NCBI GenBank assembly: GCA_027623195.1
Contig: JAQBUT010000042.1
Coordinates: 1 to 17,305 of the forward strand
DNA length: 17,305 bases
Direction of reading: 5' to 3'
DNA from: Chloroflexota bacterium
Lineage (GTDB): Bacteria; Chloroflexota; Dehalococcoidia; Lucifugimonadales; JADFKI01
Shown here: positions 2,972 through 13,094 of the stretch, one piece after another
Layout of the letters: every line of letters begins with the position of its first letter
How positions within the stretch are numbered: the first letter of the stretch is position 1
Notes under the pieces: generated by a model
Database searches by the model: none
What the model was told of the DNA's origin: nothing
What the model saw: the letters and a program-made list of their open reading frames with translations, nothing else
Translations under genes and position numbers: made by a program

Positions 2972-4345
2972 ATGACGATTCGTCCAGTAATCATATTCAC
3001 GTTCTTAGCAGTGCTGGTTGGCTCTGCGATAGCGGGTGGCACTCTGCTGGGTCGAAGCCTTAGCGCGTCACCTCCAGCAAGCGTCGTGGTGTCACCGCAA
3101 CTAGCGCATGGTGAAGGTCAATATCCGTTTACCATGCAGGGCCTGCTTCTAGACGAAAACGGCGACCCGGTGTCGAACAGCTCCCATTCCCTGACCTTCG
3201 CCATTTACCATGACCCCGATGTCAGCGCCGCACTCTGGAGCGAGACCATAACGGTTTTTACATTGGACGGCCTGTTTACTGTCCAACTTGGGGTAGATGA
3301 TGAGATAGATCCTGATATATTCGCCAACAATCCGACCACGTGGCTTGGCGTAAGAGTTGGATTCAATCCAGAGCTGACGCCTCGAATACGCATGGCCTAT
3401 TCCCCCTATGCAATTCACGCCGTAACGGCGGACACTCTGGTAACGGCTCCTCCGAATCCCAGGCAGGTGGCCATACTCCGCTGGTACGAAGCGAACAACT
3501 CTGAGCTCGAGATTGCGTTGGATGATCGGCCGGGGGCCATCGCCTTTGACGGCGAAAGCATGTGGGTGGCCAACCGAGGTGATGACGCCGACCCCGATGA
3601 CGATGCCGTGACCAAAATCACAGCGTCTACAAAAAAGGTCGTTGCAGACTTTCCCACAGGTCAAAGCCCCAGTGCCATTGCATTTGACGGAGAGAACATT
3701 TGGGTTGCCAATGCAGACAGCGACGACCTGACCAAGTTCAACAAAGACGGCTCTAGGAAACGCACGCTTCCGTCGGGGGGCCAACGGCCTGTTGCGCTGG
3801 CGTTCGATGGTGAGTTCATGTGGGTCGTTAACGAAGGCGACGATACCGTTGTGAAATACGATGTTCGCTCGGAGACAATTTCGGACACTATACCTGCGGG
3901 CAACAGCCCCTCCGCAATTGCCTTTGACGGTGAACTTATGTGGGTTCTAATTTCGGGCAGCCGTAACGTAATGCGGATTAATGCCAAGACGGGCGCTGAA
4001 GTGGACAGACTTGGGGCCGGCGACGGACAGTCCTCTTTGGCTTTCGACGGCACTAATATGTGGGTCGCAGACGAGAGTGACAACTCCGTTACAAAGGTCC
4101 GTGCCGGCGACGGTGAGGTCCTGGGTTCCTTTGGACTGGGCGGGGCTAGGCCGGTCGCCATAGCATTTGACGGCCGGGACATTTGGGTGGTGAACCGCAA
4201 CAGCGACACCGTAACGAAACTCAGGTCGTCTGATGGCTCTGTCATCGGCACATACGGTGTAGGTCTAACTCCCGTTGGAATAGCTTTTGATGGCGTTAAC
4301 CTGTGGGTTGTAAATCAGGATGACGACACGGTGACGATAAAGTAA
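2972..4345 (+). CDS. Exported fibre/adhesin-like protein A: N-terminal signal/anchor, 97-aa QG..PYA domain, 7-bladed YncE/YVTN-like beta-propeller, 457 aa
   Basis: GGAGG (2960-2964) favours ATG 2972 over 2954. Hydrophobic N-terminus; shared domain 3122-3412; NPRQVAILRWY linker; seven ~40-aa repeats P.AIAFDG..(M/I)WV.N...D.V.K. Confidence 0.85.
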   Translation: MTIRPVIIFTFLAVLVGSAIAGGTLLGRSLSASPPASVVVSPQLAHGEGQYPFTMQGLLLDENGDPVSNSSHSLTFAIYHDPDVSAALWSETITVFTLDGLFTVQLGVDDEIDPDIFANNPTTWLGVRVGFNPELTPRIRMAYSPYAIHAVTADTLVTAPPNPRQVAILRWYEANNSELEIALDDRPGAIAFDGESMWVANRGDDADPDDDAVTKITASTKKVVADFPTGQSPSAIAFDGENIWVANADSDDLTKFNKDGSRKRTLPSGGQRPVALAFDGEFMWVVNEGDDTVVKYDVRSETISDTIPAGNSPSAIAFDGELMWVLISGSRNVMRINAKTGAEVDRLGAGDGQSSLAFDGTNMWVADESDNSVTKVRAGDGEVLGSFGLGGARPVAIAFDGRDIWVVNRNSDTVTKLRSSDGSVIGTYGVGLTPVGIAFDGVNLWVVNQDDDTVTIK

Positions 4346-5125
4346 ATGAGACTGCTCAAGCTTATCGCAACCAGACGCAAGCACAGGAGGTACGCCGTCG
4401 TTGCCCTGGCCGCGGCATTTGTCGTCGCAACCTTTGGGGTTAGCTTCGTCGCCGCGCAGGAGTCCAGAAACTTCATGCCGTGGTTCAATCAGGCCAATGG
4501 AGGTGGTGCTCTCGCGGATAGAGACACCATCTTGCGGACCTCCATGGGGCAGGCGGCGATGGGCAGGTCCACGTCGGATGATTTTGAGGTTGTTCTAGGA
4601 TTTCATACTGGGGTGCTGGCTGGTGCGCCTGCTTTCGCCGCAAGAGTTCAAGAGCTTGCCCTGACTCCGTTGCCCACTTCAACATCTACTCCGCCCCCTA
4701 CCAGGACTCCCGAGTCTACAGAGGAGCCTGCAGAGGCTACAGCAACTGCTGAGACTGTGGGAGAAACTGCGACGCCTGATCCGGTTGTTGAGGATACGCC
4801 AACGCCTGAAGAAAGGCCTACTTCTACCGCTGTGCCGCCTACCCAGACACCGGCATTACCAGGGACGCCCGGAGATTTGCCCACCACCACACCGGTCGTG
4901 ATAGTAGTTACATCGGTGCCTGAGCCTGGACTTGAACCGGAGGCCACGGCGACGCCTTACATAATTGTCGTTACTGCTCCTCCTTCGGACGTTCCCACTC
5001 CCGAGCCGCCTTCCGGTGGCGCCTGCGGATTGCCGGCCAATAACGGCCCTATTCCGCTGGATCTGGGGATGATAATGCTCCTGGTTGCCCCACTTATGCT
5101 TTGGAGGATCGGATTTAAGCCATGA
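4346..5125 (+). CDS. Membrane-anchored surface protein: signal peptide, short GGG..GQ..GF motif domain, Pro/Thr/Glu-rich stalk, C-terminal GGACG + TM segment
   Basis: ATG directly follows the previous stop (TAAATG); basic n-region plus hydrophobic h-region ending VAA|Q; stalk ~4661-5010; tail SGGACG...DLGMIMLLVAPLMLWRIGFKP. Confidence 0.8.
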   Translation: MRLLKLIATRRKHRRYAVVALAAAFVVATFGVSFVAAQESRNFMPWFNQANGGGALADRDTILRTSMGQAAMGRSTSDDFEVVLGFHTGVLAGAPAFAARVQELALTPLPTSTSTPPPTRTPESTEEPAEATATAETVGETATPDPVVEDTPTPEERPTSTAVPPTQTPALPGTPGDLPTTTPVVIVVTSVPEPGLEPEATATPYIIVVTAPPSDVPTPEPPSGGACGLPANNGPIPLDLGMIMLLVAPLMLWRIGFKP

Positions 5126-6741
5126 TACTTTGGAGCAGGTCAAAAGCCTTTGCCCTGGGATTACTGGCGCTCGCCTTGATGACGGCCGCCGGGGCTGGGG
5201 CTGCGTATGCCTTCAGCAGTGCGGATACAAACGCCTTGGCAATTTCGACTCTGCAGGCATCTCCGGTGGAATACCCTATATCGATTCAAGGGATTCTTAC
5301 CGATACCAGCGGCAAAACTGTCGCCAATGGCGCGCACGACATTACCTTTTCGATATACGATGAGGTCGCTGGCGGAAAGCGACTTTGGCAGGAATCGCAG
5401 ACGGTGGTTAGCTCTGGTGGCCTGTTCGATGCTTTATTAGGCAGCGCAAATCCCATAGACCCGTCCGTCGTAGATGACAACTCGGAGACGTACCTTGGGG
5501 TCAAGGTGGGCTCGGACGCCGAGTTGGACCCTCGTATTCGACTAGCCTACGCGCCGTATGCAATCCAGGCTGTGGCATCGGACGACTCGGATACGCTGGA
5601 TGGATTCGACTCCTCCGATTTCGCCCTGAAAGGGGAATTACAATCCTCCGGGAGTGTGACCCTAGCCGCATCATCTTACAGCCCATTCTCCTCCAACACT
5701 GTAGATAATGACGACAACGTAGGCACATTCTCAGATATCGCTATAGGACTAGATGGGTTTCCCATCATCAGCTACTACGATGAGTCCGGGCGCGACCTCA
5801 AAGTTGCCAAATGCACCACCTCTGACTGCTCCAGTGCCGTAATTAATACGTTGGATAGCGACGGACTCGTTGGCCAATATACATCCATCGCCATTAGTGA
5901 GGATGGCCTGCCGGTAATTAGTTACTTCGACGACACAAATGACTCTTTGAAGGTGGCTCGCTGTTCCAATTCGGTATGTTCCAGGACGACAATCACCACA
6001 CCGGACACCGGGGGTGTTGGACAATACTCCTCGATTGCAATTGGCAAGGATGGTATGCCGGTGGTCAGTTACTTTCAAAAGGACAGAAAGGATCTCCTCT
6101 TCATCCAGTGCGAAGATGAGGACTGTTCCGACGTAAACTTCAGCAGTGTGGATGAACCCGACGATGTCGGATTGTACAGCTCCGTGGCCATTGGGGCAGA
6201 TGAATTGCCGATAATCAGCTATTACAACGATTCCAACGATACTTTGAAGGTTGCCCACTGTACCAAAGACGACTGTGATACCGCCACAATAACCACCATC
6301 GATGATGCAGGCGATTCTGGCGAATACACTTCCCTGGCTATTGGAACGGACGGATTTGCTGTTATCAGCTACTACGATGCTGGTGATGAGGACCTCAAAG
6401 TTGCTCACTGCTCCAACGCTGCCTGCACGAGTTCCGCAATATCAACAGTGGATAGCGTCGGTAAAGTCGGCATGTACTCGTCGATCACCATTGGGGTAGA
6501 TGGACTGCCCCTAATCAGCTACTTTGATGAGTCCGGAGATAACTTAAAGTTAGCGCACTGCTCCAACGTCTCATGCAGTAGCACGGATAGGATCATGACC
6601 GTCGATTGGCCCGGGCGGGTTGGTGAGCACAGCGCAAATACATCCGGCATTGATGGCCTCCCAATCATTATCTATTACGATGCGACCTCGGAGGCCATGA
6701 AGGCAGTGCGATGCGCCAAGGTTGGCTGCGCGATTCCGTAG
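5122..6741 (+). CDS. Exported fibre/adhesin-like protein B: signal peptide, 97-aa QG..PYA domain, DTLDGFDSSDF fibre-like motif, seven Cys-paired ~50-aa repeats (probable beta-propeller)
   Basis: ATGA overlap with the previous stop; shared domain 5272-5562; seven repeats T.D....VG.Y.S.AIG.DG.P.ISY.D.....LKVA.CxxxxC. Confidence 0.85.
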   Translation: MILWSRSKAFALGLLALALMTAAGAGAAYAFSSADTNALAISTLQASPVEYPISIQGILTDTSGKTVANGAHDITFSIYDEVAGGKRLWQESQTVVSSGGLFDALLGSANPIDPSVVDDNSETYLGVKVGSDAELDPRIRLAYAPYAIQAVASDDSDTLDGFDSSDFALKGELQSSGSVTLAASSYSPFSSNTVDNDDNVGTFSDIAIGLDGFPIISYYDESGRDLKVAKCTTSDCSSAVINTLDSDGLVGQYTSIAISEDGLPVISYFDDTNDSLKVARCSNSVCSRTTITTPDTGGVGQYSSIAIGKDGMPVVSYFQKDRKDLLFIQCEDEDCSDVNFSSVDEPDDVGLYSSVAIGADELPIISYYNDSNDTLKVAHCTKDDCDTATITTIDDAGDSGEYTSLAIGTDGFAVISYYDAGDEDLKVAHCSNAACTSSAISTVDSVGKVGMYSSITIGVDGLPLISYFDESGDNLKLAHCSNVSCSSTDRIMTVDWPGRVGEHSANTSGIDGLPIIIYYDATSEAMKAVRCAKVGCAIP

Positions 6742-6930: not shown

Positions 6931-8952
6931 ATGACTACTTACAGATACTCCCGATGGGACGGTAGCCAGAACATCTTCGGACTTGACGAAGATGACATTA
7001 TGGACAGTTTGGCAGACGACATTCTCTCTAATGGAGACCTTAATAGGGCGTTGCGTAATCTGATGCAACGCGGCATGCAGGACGAGAACGGTCAGCAGAT
7101 GCCCGGCCTACGCGACCTGCAGGAACGGCTCCGTCAGCAGCGACAGCAACAGCTTGAGCGCTACAACCTCGACTCTCTTATGGACGACCTCAAGGAAAAG
7201 CTGAAAGAGGTCATCGATACGGAGCGCAGTGGCATAGACAAAAGGCTGCAAGAGGCTCGGCAACAGCTTGAGGATGCTGGCGAGGGCAGTGAGCACCTGC
7301 AGGGCGCCATGCAGATGCTGGAAGATCGGGCGGAGGCCAACCAGGAGAAACTAGAAAGTCTTCCCGATGGCATGGGAGGCCAGATACAGGAGCTTCAGAA
7401 CTACGATTTCATGGACCCGGAGGCTCGACAGAAGTTCGAAGAGTTGCTGGACATGCTCAAGCAGCAGATGATGCAGAACTTCTTCCAGGGCATGAAGGAT
7501 CAGCTCCAGGACATGAGTCCAGAGGACATGGAAGGCCTGAAGAACATGATTCAGGCCCTCAATCAGATGCTGCGGGACCGGGCCATGGGCGAGGACCCTG
7601 ACTTCGAAGGGTTTATGGAGCAGTACGGGCAGTACTTCGACCCTAATCGCCCCGCCAGCCTCGACGAACTGTTGGAACAGCTTCAGCAGCAGATGGCGGC
7701 CATGCAATCACTCATGGAGAGCATGTCGCCCCAGATGCGAGACGAGTTAGAAGGCCTAATGCAGTCGGCTATAGATCCAGAGTTCATGAACGAACTGGGC
7801 GAGTTGGCGGGCATGATGTACGACATGTTCCCGTTCGACGACATGGCCAAGGAATATCCCTTCATGGGCGACGAGTCGATGACTCTGGACCAGGCGATGG
7901 ACGTTATGGGCCAGTTGCAGGGCATGGACCAGTTGGAAGAGCAGATTAAGCAGGTCATGCGCAACGGCAACGTGGAGGACCTGGACCCAGAGAAGGTGGA
8001 GGAGCACCTGGGAGAAGAAGCTCGCCGCCAGCTGGAACAGCTTCAGAAGGTGATCCAACAACTGGAGGATGCCGGCTACCTGAAGCGCAAGGGAGACCGG
8101 CTGGAGTTGACTCCCAGGGGCATTCGCAAGCTGGCGCAGAAGGCCCTCAAAGAGGTTTTCTCTGAGCTTAAGAAGGATAGAATGGGACGGCACGAGGTCT
8201 ACGATCGCGGCGAAGGCGGCGAGAGGACCGGCGAGACCAAGCCTTACGAGTTTGGAGACCCCTTCGATGTGGATTTGCACCGGACGCTGTTTAACGCGGT
8301 GCTACGCGAAGGGCCGAAGACGCCGCTAAGTCTAAGCCCTGACGACTTCGAGATTAATCGCACCGAGCACATGACTCAAACGGCCACGGTGCTGTTGCTG
8401 GACCAGAGCCGATCTATGGGCATGTTCGGCAGCTTCTCAGCCGCCAAAAAGGTAGCCTTGGCGCTGTACTGGCTAATTCACAGCGAGTACCCTCGGGACT
8501 ACTTCAATGTGATTGGCTTCTCTGACTACGGCATGGAGATAAAGACGGACGACCTTGCGGAGCTTACGTGGAATGCCTGGGTTTCCGGCACCAACATGCA
8601 GCACGGCCTGCTACTGGCCCGTAAGGCTTTGGCACGGCAAAAGGTCGCAACCAAGCAAATAATCATGATCACCGACGGGGAGCCAACCGCTCACCTGGAG
8701 GGTGGCCGCGCTCACTTTAGCTATCCGCCAAGTTGGCGCACTTTGGATGAGACTCTCAAAGAGGTGAAACGGTGCACGCAGGAAGGAATAACCATCAACA
8801 CCTTCATGCTTGAAGCTAACTATTACCTCGTTGACTTCATCGACAAGATGACGCGCATCAACAAGGGCAGGGCCTTCTATACCGACCCATCACAGCTTGG
8901 GCGGTATGTCATGGTGGACTACCTGAAGAGCAGGCGCAAACGAATTTCCTAG
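6931..8952 (+). CDS. VWA (MIDAS) domain protein with long Met/Gln/Glu-rich helical N-terminal region; Rv0959/COG4867-like
   Basis: N-terminal YRYSRWDG; LELTPRGIR.L...AL.EVF; ETKPYEFGDPF; complete MIDAS DQSRS...GTN...ITDGEPTAH; 673 aa. Confidence 0.88.
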   Translation: MTTYRYSRWDGSQNIFGLDEDDIMDSLADDILSNGDLNRALRNLMQRGMQDENGQQMPGLRDLQERLRQQRQQQLERYNLDSLMDDLKEKLKEVIDTERSGIDKRLQEARQQLEDAGEGSEHLQGAMQMLEDRAEANQEKLESLPDGMGGQIQELQNYDFMDPEARQKFEELLDMLKQQMMQNFFQGMKDQLQDMSPEDMEGLKNMIQALNQMLRDRAMGEDPDFEGFMEQYGQYFDPNRPASLDELLEQLQQQMAAMQSLMESMSPQMRDELEGLMQSAIDPEFMNELGELAGMMYDMFPFDDMAKEYPFMGDESMTLDQAMDVMGQLQGMDQLEEQIKQVMRNGNVEDLDPEKVEEHLGEEARRQLEQLQKVIQQLEDAGYLKRKGDRLELTPRGIRKLAQKALKEVFSELKKDRMGRHEVYDRGEGGERTGETKPYEFGDPFDVDLHRTLFNAVLREGPKTPLSLSPDDFEINRTEHMTQTATVLLLDQSRSMGMFGSFSAAKKVALALYWLIHSEYPRDYFNVIGFSDYGMEIKTDDLAELTWNAWVSGTNMQHGLLLARKALARQKVATKQIIMITDGEPTAHLEGGRAHFSYPPSWRTLDETLKEVKRCTQEGITINTFMLEANYYLVDFIDKMTRINKGRAFYTDPSQLGRYVMVDYLKSRRKRIS

Positions 8953-9019: not shown

Positions 9020-9538
9020 ATGCGTCGTTTTGCACCGCTCCTAGTCCTTTTGGCGATTGTGGTCACATTTATCGAGACGGCTTTCCTTCATGAGCTCTCC
9101 CATTTGGGCCTTGCCCACCTCCTTGGCATACCTGTTGTTCATTTTTACTGGATTGATCCTGTATTAAAGGTTCCCAGCGTATACTTCGACGTGGATGGCT
9201 GGTCGTGGCGGCTTTCTATGACACAGTTTGGCGGTGGTATCATCGCCGGAACCGTTTGGGGCGTTTTGCATGGACAGCTTCTGCGAAAAGGCTACTTGGA
9301 CCGCAGCGGCGCTTGGTGGGCCTTCGGCGCTTGGCTGGCCATTCTCACAGTGTGGCAGTTTGGGCAGGGACTTATAGAGGGTGCCCTGCACGGCATGTAC
9401 ATTGATGGCGCGAGGGAACTCGGCAGCGCCAGCCGCATGATGCAGATCGCGTTCATGACCATGGGTTTCCTGCTCCACGTCACCGCGACCAGAGCTAGTC
9501 TGCCGGGCCTACGACGTAGAGCCCTAAGTTCTGATTAA
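9020..9538 (+). CDS. Multi-pass membrane protein with HExxH motif (M50-like metallopeptidase candidate)
   Basis: SD GAGG upstream; FLHELSH at the end of the first hydrophobic helix followed by A.LLG; about four hydrophobic segments. Third zinc ligand not clearly identifiable. Confidence 0.6.
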   Translation: MRRFAPLLVLLAIVVTFIETAFLHELSHLGLAHLLGIPVVHFYWIDPVLKVPSVYFDVDGWSWRLSMTQFGGGIIAGTVWGVLHGQLLRKGYLDRSGAWWAFGAWLAILTVWQFGQGLIEGALHGMYIDGARELGSASRMMQIAFMTMGFLLHVTATRASLPGLRRRALSSD

Positions 9539-9574
9539 TTCTTTACCTATTGTGCTGGCTGCCACGCTCCGCTC

Positions 9575-9585
9575 TGCTAAAATAC
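9575..9585 (+). promoter_or_regulatory. Extended -10 promoter giving a near-leaderless transcript of the ATPase gene
   Basis: TGCTAAAATAC; the -10 hexamer ends at 9583, the ATG is at 9593, and there is no SD between them. Confidence 0.6.
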
Positions 9586-9592
9586 GCCCATT

Positions 9593-10396
9593 ATGACAAT
9601 CGACTTAAATACGCCAAACTGGTGGGGTGGAGAAGACCGAGCATCCGGGCGACCTTCCCTCCTGGCCCTGATCGAGAATGGCACGCTGGATCTTCGTACC
9701 GCGGCGCTGCTCTGGTTGCTGTTGGACCGCAAATCTTCTATTCTTGCCGCCGCTGGGCCTCAACTCACTGGCAAAACCACCCTGCTAACTACCCTTCTGG
9801 ACCTCATGTCACCCGCCTATCAGAAGATATTGGCCAGGGGCAGGGAGGAGGAATTTTCCTTTCTCGGGAGTGCTGTGCCGGAAGAGACCTACCTTCTCGT
9901 CGCGGAGTTGAGTGACCACACCCCTGCCTACCTTTGGGGCGATGCCGTCAAGACGCTTTTCCATGCCCTGGACTCAGGCTATTCCATGCTGGCCACTATG
10001 CACGCGGATACGCCGGAAGAGGTGCTGGACATACTTCGAGATTACCCCGTCTTTATCCCTGACACCCAGCTTCATCAGGTTGGCGTGGTGGTTAATCTGG
10101 TGCTTATGTATGGCGAGCACGAACTCATTCGTCGGGTGAGCGGTGTGACGCTGGTAGCGCCGGGCCCGTCCCTGGTGCCGTTGGTGGACTGGGACGCTAA
10201 GGATGAATCCATCAGTCACGCTACCGACTCTAAGGCCATGGGCGCACTGGCGAAGCACCTGGGTATGACGGTTCAGGAGGCACGGACCGGCATAGAACAG
10301 CGCGAGGATACGTTGCGGGGCTGGCTGTCACGAGGCGACCTTGCGCCGTCGGCAGCTGTTCGAATGGCTGAGGCACATCGCAGTGCCAACGCTTAA
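9593..10396 (+). CDS. P-loop ATPase, C-terminal domain of the VirB11/TadA(CpaF)/FlaI secretion-ATPase type, lacking the N-terminal domain
   Basis: LIENGTLD...AALLW lead-in, Walker A GPQLTGKTT, Walker-B-like YLLVAE, His-box ATMHA; only 267 aa. Confidence 0.8.
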   Translation: MTIDLNTPNWWGGEDRASGRPSLLALIENGTLDLRTAALLWLLLDRKSSILAAAGPQLTGKTTLLTTLLDLMSPAYQKILARGREEEFSFLGSAVPEETYLLVAELSDHTPAYLWGDAVKTLFHALDSGYSMLATMHADTPEEVLDILRDYPVFIPDTQLHQVGVVVNLVLMYGEHELIRRVSGVTLVAPGPSLVPLVDWDAKDESISHATDSKAMGALAKHLGMTVQEARTGIEQREDTLRGWLSRGDLAPSAAVRMAEAHRSANA

Positions 10397-10636: not shown

Positions 10637-11203
10637 ATGACAAGATTATGGCTGATAGGCGGAAGCGTTTTCCTGGGGATATTGTTGATAGCCAGCTTGG
10701 TTTTGGCACTGACCCAGAAGGAGAACCTGCTTCCACTGGGTACAGCGGAGGCCGCAGTACAAAATTTCCTCATAGCCTCCGAGGCTGAGGACTTTCAGGT
10801 TGCCTACGATTTCCTTTCCGAAGAGCTAAAGGCGGACTGCAAATTGGAGGATTTCGCCGGGCAGCATAGATTTGACGGCGGCCAAGTTGAGGACTCCAGC
10901 GTGACTTTGGATAAAACCAGTACGGCGGACGGAGTAACCTTTGTTGACGTACGGATAACCCAATTTTACGGCACCAGTCCATTTGGTTCTTCAGAATCAA
11001 CGCAACAGCAGAGGTACAGTCTTCGGCAGGAGGATGGGTTGTGGAAGTTCTCCGTCTACCCGTGGCCGTATTACAATTGCGGACAGGACAGGTTTGCGCC
11101 TCCCTATTATGAGGTGCCTGCGCTACGGCCCACCCCCGCAGCGACGCCAGCGCCATTGATGGCGCCTACGGCCGAGCCGCCAGCGAAACCAGCCGCGCCC
11201 TAA
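10637..11203 (+). CDS. Single-pass membrane protein with extracytoplasmic NTF2-like domain and Pro/Ala-rich tail
   Basis: SD AGGAG; N-terminal TM; TAEAAVQNFL.A....DF..AYDFLS and L.QEDG.WK patterns typical of NTF2-like/DUF4878-type domains; two Cys. Confidence 0.75.
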   Translation: MTRLWLIGGSVFLGILLIASLVLALTQKENLLPLGTAEAAVQNFLIASEAEDFQVAYDFLSEELKADCKLEDFAGQHRFDGGQVEDSSVTLDKTSTADGVTFVDVRITQFYGTSPFGSSESTQQQRYSLRQEDGLWKFSVYPWPYYNCGQDRFAPPYYEVPALRPTPAATPAPLMAPTAEPPAKPAAP

Positions 11204-11279
11204 ACACGGATGTGGCTAGACGATAGGCTGGTCCAGGGCTGGCGAATGTCCATTGTCATCGTGGTGGCAAGGAATTGAG

Positions 11280-13094
11280 ATGAATATGTTATTTTTCCTA
11301 GCAGGGTTTCTACCCTACCTGGTTGTGCTGATCGTCATCGGGGTTCTTATATATGGCGTAATGGCTTGGCGCAGGAGAGAAAATGTCCCCGAGGTCGACC
11401 CTGGCATAGGCACGGTTCGCCGGGTCTACTTCTACATTGTGGCCTTCGCCGCTCTGATGATGACGGCCAACGGCGTTGTCTTGCTGGTCCGGTATGTGTT
11501 GGACGGCCTCTTTGGAGGTCCGGTTGTATCCTCATCAAGTGGCTGGCTAGCTGGCGGTGTCTCGTTAACGGTGGTCGGGCTTCCGTTGTGGGCCTTTCAC
11601 TGGCGACTGATTCAGCGTTACTTAGGCGAACTGCCTGTAGAAAGCCGTTCGCTGCTTCGCAAGCTGTACATCTACCTGGTTATGGTGGTTAGCGGTGGTC
11701 TGGTCATAGTATCCGCCGTGCAATTGCTTCGATGGGCGTTTGGAACCATTGATTTTAGCGCTTATCACTGGGGCGCAATTGTCATTTGGGGAGCCGTTTG
11801 GGCCTTCCATTGGCGTATCGAGGAGGCTGAAGGACAGCCAACGTCGGACGCCGTGGGCGTCAGGCGCCTGTACTTGTACGCGGCATCGTTGGCCACTCTT
11901 GTAATGCTTTCCTTCGGAATAGGCAGGGTTGCCTACCTGATACTACTGGGGGGCTACGAGGCTCTGACATTCGCCTCTGTGCTTCTCACCCAAGATGCTG
12001 GCCTGTGGCGTCCTGCTTTGAGGGGGGCTCTGGCCATCGGTATAGTTGGCGGGCTATTTTGGGGACTGCACTGGTTTTACCTTGCCCGACGAGATTTCGG
12101 GTCCGCATTGCGGCAGGTGTACCTGTACCTATTTGCAATTCTAGGAGGCGTGGTAACTATCCTGACGGCGTTGGCCGTCGCCCTGAGCGGAGTACTTGTT
12201 TGGCTGCTGGGAGCGGCAGACGACCCTGCAGCAATGCATTTTCGCTTTCTGCCGGGCGTGATCGCGTCGCTGGCAGTTGGCGTCGGCCTTTGGGCCTACC
12301 ACTGGATGGTCGTGCAAAAAGAGGCCCAGGTCTCCCCGCAGGAGGCCAAAGATGCTCGACGTGCGTACGTGTATATCGTGTCGGGCATTGGGCTAGCGGC
12401 GATGGCCATTGGCGTCTTCATTCTGGTGGGCACGGCGCTGGATCTTATACTGGACAGCGTAACCCAGGTAATCGCCGGTCGGGAGAGTCTGAGGCTGCAG
12501 CCCCTGGCGGGGAGCATCACGCTGCTGGCCCTGGGCGCTCCTCTGTGGGGTTACTTCTGGGTGTTTGCCCAGCGGATGGTAAGAGACGGCGGTACTGAGG
12601 AGACGCACACTCTTGCTCGCAGAATATTCGTCTTTGCAGCATTGGGTGCTGGCGTACTTTCGCTTCTAGGTAGCGTAAGTACGACGCTGTTCCTGTTTCT
12701 GCGGGACCTGCTTGAGGGCCGTCTGAGCACAGGGACGATTCATGAATTAACCGTACCAATTGCAATTATTGTCACCGCAATTATATTCGTGCCGTACTAC
12801 TGGAACGTCTACCGGCAGGATAGGGATGCCGGCCCCCAGAATGCAAAGGCGCGGCCAGTGCGCAAGGATGTGACGGTGCTTACGGCGACTGGTGGAGACG
12901 AGCTTGTGGTGCGGCTGGAGGCTGCCCTGGGCTACCGGGTCACCACCGCCCGATGGGCCGACGCCGACGCCGCTCCAACGTCCCTATCTGACGACGAGTG
13001 CCGTCAGGTCGCGTCCCGAGTGGACGCCGCTCCGGGCCGTCGCGTAATGGTAATCCCAGACCGCGCAGGCCTGAGAGTGGTGTCGTATCGGTAG
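11280..13094 (+). CDS. Polytopic membrane protein with six DUF5671-like repeats and a small soluble C-terminal domain, 604 aa
   Basis: Repeats start RRVYFY, RKLYIY, RRLYLY, RQVYLY, RRAYVY, RRIFVF and end with W..HW-like motifs; ATG 11280 preferred over TTG 11253 (AAGGA at 11269-11273). Confidence 0.82.
   Translation: MNMLFFLAGFLPYLVVLIVIGVLIYGVMAWRRRENVPEVDPGIGTVRRVYFYIVAFAALMMTANGVVLLVRYVLDGLFGGPVVSSSSGWLAGGVSLTVVGLPLWAFHWRLIQRYLGELPVESRSLLRKLYIYLVMVVSGGLVIVSAVQLLRWAFGTIDFSAYHWGAIVIWGAVWAFHWRIEEAEGQPTSDAVGVRRLYLYAASLATLVMLSFGIGRVAYLILLGGYEALTFASVLLTQDAGLWRPALRGALAIGIVGGLFWGLHWFYLARRDFGSALRQVYLYLFAILGGVVTILTALAVALSGVLVWLLGAADDPAAMHFRFLPGVIASLAVGVGLWAYHWMVVQKEAQVSPQEAKDARRAYVYIVSGIGLAAMAIGVFILVGTALDLILDSVTQVIAGRESLRLQPLAGSITLLALGAPLWGYFWVFAQRMVRDGGTEETHTLARRIFVFAALGAGVLSLLGSVSTTLFLFLRDLLEGRLSTGTIHELTVPIAIIVTAIIFVPYYWNVYRQDRDAGPQNAKARPVRKDVTVLTATGGDELVVRLEAALGYRVTTARWADADAAPTSLSDDECRQVASRVDAAPGRRVMVIPDRAGLRVVSYR

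What the first reader, a model, noticed from the sequence alone, without database searches (positions are those of the whole stretch)
2972..6741. Candidate undescribed modular surface-fibre system: two adhesin-like subunits flanking a membrane-anchored stalk/adaptor
Seen: three translationally coupled genes (TAAATG at 4343-4348, ATGA at 5122-5125), all with hydrophobic export/anchor N-termini. Genes 1 and 3 share an N-terminal domain but have unrelated propeller heads. Gene 2 has a short conserved-looking motif on a Pro/Thr stalk with a C-terminal membrane anchor. Genes 1 and 3 have no C-terminal anchor. Knowledge: QG...PYA N-terminal modules head bacterial tail-fibre-like proteins, such as the mosaic adhesive trimer (MAT) fibres of Bdellovibrio. 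Inference: gene 2 is a cell-surface socket that captures interchangeable fibre subunits through their common domain. This would be a plug-and-socket adhesin display route in a probable monoderm, with no autotransporter or T9SS parts visible in the window.
Basis: partly seen in the sequence, partly recalled or inferred. Interest (0 to 1): 0.85.

Follow-up and report, generated by a model that had tools for sequence, protein, structure and literature searches.

The report
Three-pronged tether for surface adhesins
A short three-part peptide on a membrane-anchored stalk is predicted to clip into three copies of a domain shared by its two neighbouring exported proteins, and the same peptide-domain gene pair recurs across many bacterial groups, so it likely is a general way of fastening sticky surface proteins to cells.

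Summary
Observation confirmed; interpretation largely supported and widened. Genes 1 and 3 share a ~105-aa N-domain (47% identical; weak Bdellovibrio MAT_N match; 39,601 clusters; no Pfam) ahead of unrelated 7-bladed propellers. Gene 2 starts with a ~52-aa peptide ('S') of three ~19-aa quasi-repeats, then a Pro/Thr stalk and a Cys-motif/TM tail. A profile from distant relatives finds only gene 2 in this genome. S and N-domain genes co-occur (27 of 28 S-positive genomes among 301; 35 of 36 well-flanked S loci). S is fused to different surface-sorting tails (YLP-type, dockerin, T9SS/FlgD, IPTL-CTERM, PamT-like pilin). A 3:1 model scores 0.85 (best control 0.02): one peptide pairs its strands with all three N-domains. 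Best reading: a predicted donor-strand tether that displays trimers of interchangeable heads (confidence 0.7). Corrections: gene 2 is the plug, not the socket; these two proteins lack fibre stalks; the system is not monoderm-specific. Untested: binding, gene-3 or mixed trimers, Bdellovibrio. Many N-domain genes lack a detectable neighbouring S. Not found in 7 literature searches, nor as this pair in the scan's earlier notes.

The parts
2972..4345 (+). Gene 1: exported protein, N-domain + 7-bladed AFDG-repeat propeller; conserved partner of gene 2
   Evidence: (PF10282 E 5.8e-7)
3119..3433 (+). N-domain of gene 1 (beta-sandwich, predicted acceptor of the S peptide)
3512..4342 (+). Gene 1 head: seven ~40-aa AFDG repeats
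   Evidence: (TIGR02276)
4346..5125 (+). Gene 2: signal peptide, S peptide, Pro/Thr stalk, Cys-motif + TM tail (tether)
4460..4621 (+). S peptide: three ~19-aa quasi-repeats directly after the predicted signal cleavage; predicted to pair with three N-domains
4661..5011 (+). Pro/Thr-rich stalk, variable among homologues
5012..5122 (+). GG-x-C motif + hydrophobic helix + short basic end; the same tail type ends 5 other proteins of this genome
5122..6741 (+). Gene 3: exported protein, N-domain + Cys-clamped 7-bladed propeller; accessory (missing at this place in G003, G004)
5269..5583 (+). N-domain of gene 3
5686..6738 (+). Gene 3 head: seven ~50-aa repeats, fold closest to PLL/PHL lectins

Best explanation
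Gene 2 is likely a cell-surface tether whose three-repeat N-terminal peptide is predicted to add one beta-strand segment to each of three N-domains, so that a trimer of the exported gene 1 and/or gene 3 proteins would be held at the tip of a Pro/Thr stalk. Steps: (1) all three proteins are exported by Sec and their signal peptides cut (inferred from sequence); (2) gene 2 stays in the membrane by its C-terminal helix, possibly processed at the Cys motif (inferred); (3) the S peptide pairs antiparallel with strand 1 of each N-domain and with its ELxPR segment (predicted); (4) three propeller heads are displayed on the stalk and bind glycans or other surfaces (inferred from fold). Across bacteria the same S peptide is fused to whatever surface-sorting tail the host uses, and the N-domain to many different fibres and heads (shown by sequence), which makes it a portable adaptor.
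For: Non-circular test: a profile from 28 peptides of distant same-phylum genomes, none from this clade, gives one significant hit among 41,675 ORFs of this genome, gene 2 (E 1.4e-5; next 0.21); it lies between the genome's only two N-domain genes. Phylum sample of 301 genomes: S in 28, N in 29, both in 27; on contigs not used for training 18 of 38 S hits lie within 6 kb of an N gene (17 of 24 without G055, where only 16 of 86 N candidates were scored) and 18 of 23 N hits near S. Own order: S in 7, N in 10 of 121, all 7 have N, 5 of 6 outside G000 adjacent. GTDB scan with S: 59 of 80 loci carry an N gene on the same strand, 35 of 36 with 3.5 kb on both sides; records are titled Chloroflexota, Planctomycetota, Binatia, Krumholzibacteriia, Latescibacterota, Sumerlaeales, Lysobacterales. 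Five such genomes: 24 of 27 S hits near N, 17 of 20 held out. Family of the Lysobacterales genome: 59 of 75 S hits outside the centre genome near N. Tails fused to S: dockerin, FlgD_ig/T9SS CTD, IPTL-CTERM, YLP-x-x-R/K ends, PamT-like pilin. S self-similarity peaks at lag 19-20. Complex N x3 + S x1: 0.85/0.86/0.84, best of 3 controls 0.02; runs share at least 92% of contacts; partner pLDDT 81-82; all three copies use the same face (residues 4-13, 76-97); the mark was reached by 116 of 157 solved complexes and 2 of 215 mismatched pairs, counts that hold only roughly for this job. No PDB sequence relative of either module, so recall of a solved like complex is unlikely. Predicted interface columns are more conserved (0.64 vs 0.46) and more alike between genes 1 and 3 (22 of 36 vs 27 of 69) (not independent of fold-core conservation).
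Against: No binding was measured; the model supports binding and does not show it. Only gene 1's domain as a homotrimer was folded. N genes often lack a detectable neighbouring S: 31 of 55 near S in five genomes; in a 101-genome sample of a second phylum N is in 22 genomes and S in 8, and of 20 N loci fetched there only 4 gave a divergent S (leave-one-out E 4e-4 to 0.02). In same-family genomes G009, G013 and G018 gene 1 is kept but no S was detected nearby; in G009 and G013 the next gene is short, lacks stalk and tail and does not match the S profile. Genomes are kin and profiles were partly trained on them, so counts overstate independence. No CPBP protease was found for the Cys tail in this 87%-complete genome. 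Signal-peptide cleavage was judged by eye; gene 1's signal is atypical.
Confidence: 0.7

Rival explanations
1. The S peptide is a transient assembly chaperone or nucleator: it helps the N-domains trimerise at the membrane and is then released, so the heads are secreted or held by something else.
For: Many N genes lack an adjacent S; membrane-anchored strand-donating chaperones are proposed for Pam pili (PMC13278184); one S protein has no anchor-like tail by eye (L259).
Against: S is nearly always fused to a surface-sorting tail or a stalk plus tail, which suits stable display; the predicted interface is large (284-290 contacts); N proteins often carry their own S74 chaperone.
Confidence: 0.12
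2. Genes 1 and 3 are self-anchored by uncleaved N-terminal helices or bind the envelope directly; gene 2 is a co-regulated surface protein that does not bind them.
For: Gene 1's signal region is long and atypical; G009/G013/G018 keep gene 1 without a recognisable S.
Against: Gene 3 and gene 2 have clean A-x-A type sites (sequence); co-location recurs in unrelated phyla with different tails and heads; model 0.85 vs 0.02.
Confidence: 0.1
3. The pair binds, but not as 3:1 tether of adhesins: for example each repeat binds separate monomers, or the heads are enzymes or signalling scaffolds, not adhesins.
For: The 3:1 stoichiometry was my choice; the two proteins lack coiled-coil, collagen or S74 parts; the gene 1 head matches lactonase-like propellers and the gene 3 model also matches glycoside hydrolases (ranks 23 ff.).
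Against: Three repeats contact three copies on the same face; many relatives end in the trimer-specific S74 chaperone (5 of 14 N proteins scanned); top fold matches of the gene 3 head are lectins.
Confidence: 0.08

Closest known systems
Bdellovibrio MAT fibres (Caulton et al. 2024, PMC10769870; NCBIfam NF053851)
   Same: Signal peptide followed by a conserved beta-rich N-domain and a variable binding end; sub-threshold match to MAT_N positions 5-76 here and 108-148 in other relatives. The paper's discussion says the N-domain presumably binds a surface element not yet identified (passages read).
   Different: No fibre stalk, no S74, propeller heads; 23-26 bits vs cut-off 60; a partner gene is adjacent here. 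Bdellovibrio genomes could not be reached, so an S peptide there is untested.
Pam pili of CPR bacteria (Troman et al., PMC13278184; PamT NF058579)
   Same: Donor-strand assembly. S peptides match the N-terminal ~80 positions of the PamT model weakly (E 2e-4 to 0.1); S-bearing proteins in CPR-type loci match it over ~130 positions (E 2.6e-9, 2e-13) and lie near an N-domain fibre gene. The paper notes a conserved tail fibre-like gene by the pam operon.
   Different: No pilin, chaperone or polymer here. In the three parts read and a term search the paper proposes no PamT-fibre link; its supplements were not seen.
Cohesin-dockerin and WxL/WxLIP display (recalled)
   Same: A surface-anchored partner captures exported proteins through a modular domain pair.
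   Different: No sequence match; here a single short peptide is predicted to engage three domains by strand pairing.
Chaperone-usher donor-strand complementation (recalled; described in PMC13278184)
   Same: A beta-strand from one chain completes a beta-sandwich of another.
   Different: One pseudo-threefold chain against a trimer, no polymer, no usher; best structural matches of the N-domain are only Z 7.6 (rmsd 2.7, 81 aligned).
MYXO-CTERM and related Cys-containing C-terminal sorting signals (PMC11980579, abstract read)
   Same: Motif with Cys, TM helix, basic end; shared by 6 proteins of this genome.
   Different: Below the TIGR03901 cut-off (one paralogue 13.6 vs 20 bits; gene 2 no hit); no CPBP protease found.
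Photorhabdus PLL/PHL lectins
   Same: Seven-bladed propeller; top Foldseek matches of the gene 3 model (E 3.8e-14, TM 0.74 by target).
   Different: 11% identity; disulphide-clamped repeats; sugar binding not tested.

Membership tests
MAT fibres | Signal peptide then conserved ~130-aa beta-rich N-domain (NF053851 over cut-off 60) | tested here: not met
   22.9 and 25.8 bits, E 6e-5 and 7.6e-6: related, not a member
MAT fibres | Long trimeric fibre stalk | tested here: not met
   Only about 25-35 residues between N-domain and head
MAT fibres | S74 chaperone or NS74 trimeric tip | tested here: not met
   No PF13884 hit; heads are propellers
MAT fibres | Homotrimer | tested here: inconclusive
   Trimer imposed in the model, confident with S; not measured
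MAT fibres | Surface exposure and prey/glycan binding | not testable with these tools
   needs experiment
Pam pilus (PamT) | NF058579 over cut-off 240, with truncated Ig acceptor domain | tested here: not met
   12 bits, only the S region aligns
Pam pilus (PamT) | Operon with pilins and membrane-anchored chaperones | tested here: not met
   None among the window's neighbours scanned
MYXO-CTERM sorting | Cys motif + TM + basic tail | tested here: met
   Sequence; 6 proteins in the genome; gene 2's basic end is short
MYXO-CTERM sorting | TIGR03901 over cut-off | tested here: not met
MYXO-CTERM sorting | Cognate CPBP protease in the genome | tested here: inconclusive
   PF02517 not found; genome 87% complete
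Phage tail fibres | Match to phage protein families or genomes | tested here: not met
   No PHROG hit for 5 segments; no tblastn match in 50,697 phage records with one query
PLL/PHL lectins (gene 3 head) | Seven-bladed propeller fold | tested here: met
PLL/PHL lectins (gene 3 head) | Sequence family and sugar-binding pockets | not tested
   11% identity; pockets not examined

The most novel reading that the evidence does not exclude
A cross-phylum 'universal adaptor': one pseudo-threefold ~52-aa peptide completes the folds of a trimer of a huge unnamed N-domain family (39,601 clusters) and couples trimeric fibres and heads to any display route (Cys-CTERM, IPTL-CTERM, YLP tails, dockerin, T9SS CTD, the tip of CPR Pam-type pili). 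It would name the missing anchor type of MAT-like fibres and the tip adhesin link of Pam pili, and here allow mixed trimers of two different heads on one stalk.
Probability: 0.55. Interest if true: 0.92.

Novelty: categorically new. Interest (0 to 1): 0.85.

Why it matters
It proposes a partner and a binding mode for one of the larger unnamed bacterial domain families (39,601 clusters at 50% identity). It turns two published open points into direct tests: what holds MAT-like N-domains on the cell (PMC10769870) and why a tail-fibre-like gene travels with CPR pam operons (PMC13278184). A 52-residue peptide that captures a trimer would be a new design of protein tether, comparable in use to cohesin-dockerin, and gives a handle to annotate adhesin display in uncultured phyla.

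Tried and rejected
Pfam has no family for the N-domain or S. PDB sequence searches found nothing for either. Fold searches of the N-domain gave only middling beta-sandwich matches (best Z 7.6; no Foldseek E<=0.001), which neither place nor exclude a family. Phage origin: no match; plasmids: no match. ESM Atlas gave three 'hypothetical protein' clusters at 0.79-0.80, leads only. No RNA holder was listed, no evidence either way. Promoter/terminator scan was at chance level. The short gene after gene 1 in G009/G013 could not be tied to S (hhalign probability 0.4). Word-index homologue searches were insensitive (6 and 8 hits). Three locus scans failed for lack of a conserved stretch and were redone with closer alignments, which biases those sets to two subtypes. 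Bdellovibrio and Bacteroidota genomes could not be reached. Literature: 7 searches found no description of the pair; subscription journals are mostly missing and supplements of the two key papers were not read. Coevolution analysis was not attempted (83 related pairs are too few).
Full report
Observation. Genes 1 and 3 share 49 of 105 residues in an N-terminal domain and nothing in their heads. Pfam knows neither the domain nor gene 2. NCBIfam gives weak matches of the domain to Bdello_MAT_N (22.9 and 25.8 bits, cut-off 60) and a faint match of gene 2 to CPR_pilus_PamT.

Gene 2. After a signal peptide ending in V-A-A (by eye) comes a conserved ~52-aa peptide (S), a variable Pro/Thr stalk and a tail of GG-x-C, hydrophobic helix and basic end. 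The same tail type ends five other proteins of the genome. It resembles MYXO-CTERM in layout (PMC11980579, abstract and outline seen) but is below that model's cut-off, and no CPBP protease was found in this 87%-complete genome.

Close relatives. The N-domain was found in 10 of 41 genomes. G001 has all three genes, gene 3 being in frameshifted pieces. G003 and G004 have genes 1 and 2 only, so gene 3 is an add-on. G027 has a different passenger on the N-domain, followed by an S peptide on an Ig domain, stalk and different tail. In G009, G013 and G018 gene 1 is kept but no S was detected nearby; in G009 and G013 the next gene is short and anchorless and I could not tie it to S; this counts against universality.

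Wider co-occurrence. Neighbourhoods of 38 N-domain loci from the phylum showed the same peptide next door. A profile of 28 such peptides, none from this clade, has one significant hit in 41,675 ORFs of the window's genome: gene 2 (E 1.4e-5, next 0.21). Genome-wide in 301 phylum genomes S occurs in 28, N in 29, both in 27. In the own order S is in 7 and N in 10 of 121 genomes. A GTDB scan with a three-sequence S alignment kept 80 of 96 confirmed loci; 59 hold an N gene on the same strand, and 35 of the 36 with 3.5 kb on both sides. Five of those genomes from outside the phylum: 24 of 27 S hits near N, but only 31 of 55 N hits near S. A 101-genome sample of the phylum of G440: S in 8, N in 22, all 8 with N, 6 of 7 non-centre S hits adjacent; of 20 N loci without a listed S, 4 gave a divergent S by leave-one-out. 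Family of G441 (27 genomes): S in 23, N in 27; 59 of 75 S hits outside G441 near N (18 weak N matches were not listed). Kin are not independent, so these counts show a strong link, not a probability. The N-domain family has 39,601 clusters at E<=0.001.

Modularity on both sides. S is followed by YLP-x-x-R/K ends in Chloroflexota (label mine), dockerin, FlgD_ig/T9SS CTD and IPTL-CTERM elsewhere. N-domain proteins carry diverse bodies; 5 of 14 scanned end in the trimer-specific S74 chaperone. In 14 metagenome loci of CPR type (taxon inferred) an iterated profile finds S in 9 (two near duplicates; four of the other five contigs are under 4 kb), at the N-terminus of a pilin-like protein a few genes from the N-domain fibre; two of these match PamT over ~130 positions below cut-off. 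The Pam preprint (PMC13278184; parts 1-3 of 7 and a term search read) places PamT at the pilus tip and notes a conserved tail fibre-like gene nearby without linking them. The MAT paper (PMC10769870; passages read) says the N-domain presumably binds a surface element still to be identified; passages of a 2026 review (PMC13689555) add no anchor.

Structure. The N-domain folds as a beta-sandwich (pLDDT 85) with a disordered last ten residues; no clear solved relative. S shows self-similarity at lag 19-20 across 83 related sequences, i.e. three quasi-repeats. Folding three copies of gene 1's domain with one S scored 0.85, 0.86, 0.84 against a best control of 0.02; runs agree in at least 92% of contacts, partner pLDDT 81-82; the mark was reached by 116 of 157 solved and 2 of 215 mismatched pairs, counts that hold only roughly here. 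All three copies use residues 4-13 and 76-97; the best-resolved pairs (8-48, 9-47, 10-46, 11-45) read as antiparallel pairing of the third repeat with strand 1 (my reading of the contact list). The model supports binding and does not show it; the 3:1 ratio was my choice.

Mechanism. Shown: anatomy, repeat structure, gene linkage, tail swapping. Predicted: strand pairing of one S with three N-domains. Inferred: Sec export and cleavage, membrane retention of gene 2, adhesive function, mixed trimers. The stalk of gene 2 would supply the reach that the two stalkless proteins lack. Confidence 0.7; rivals are a transient assembly chaperone (0.12), no interaction (0.10) and another stoichiometry or head function (0.08).

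Comparison and verdict. It works like donor-strand complementation used as a cohesin-dockerin-type tether. It is not a MAT, Pam or phage fibre member by the tests listed. Seven paper searches and four look-ups of earlier scan notes found no description of this pair; e1-9998902 describes a different, C-terminal fibre socket. Coverage of the literature is incomplete. Rated categorically new, interest 0.85.

Noticed in passing
G000:C56:165526-167754 (L257): A protein with AFDG-type propeller repeats like gene 1's head (about twice as many) but with hydrophobic segments and a Pro/Thr stretch in place of the N-domain: the same head on a different anchor.
   Followed up: partly
G000 C6:31052-32365, C6:56612-57814, C16:5155-6621, C20:13083-15377, C37:77566-78696: Five further proteins end in the same GG-x-C + TM + basic tail; likely an unnamed Cys-type sorting signal of this lineage whose enzyme is not identified.
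   Followed up: partly
L017:7722-8138, L019:7653-8018: Short exported protein in the place of gene 2, without stalk or tail; 41% alike between the two genomes; no match to S. May be a strongly diverged S or a different partner.
   Followed up: partly
L014:3712-4749 (G001): Gene 3 orthologue in at least three frameshifted pieces; pseudogene or assembly error.
   Followed up: no
L202-L214: CPR-type operons: pilin-like gene(s), one or two chaperone-like TM proteins, S-bearing PamT-like gene and N-domain fibre; Pam-like pili that NCBIfam Pam models mostly miss.
   Followed up: partly
L053:3209-8212, L051, L054, L066: S peptides (two in tandem in L053) near the C-terminus of large enzymes or surface proteins, just before the YLP tail.
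   Followed up: no
P0018, P0023, P0025, P0028, P0029: Proteins with 2-4 tandem N-domains in one chain; three in one chain could bind one S as a single-chain pseudo-trimer.
   Followed up: no
window 9020-10396: A small membrane protein beside a stand-alone FlaI/TadA-like ATPase fragment (NF058587 E 9.6e-12, sub-cut-off), syntenic in G001 and G004.
   Followed up: no
window 6931-8952; 10637-13094: vWA/CoxE-like protein, and a DUF5671 membrane protein with a small exported partner; conserved synteny in G003.
   Followed up: no
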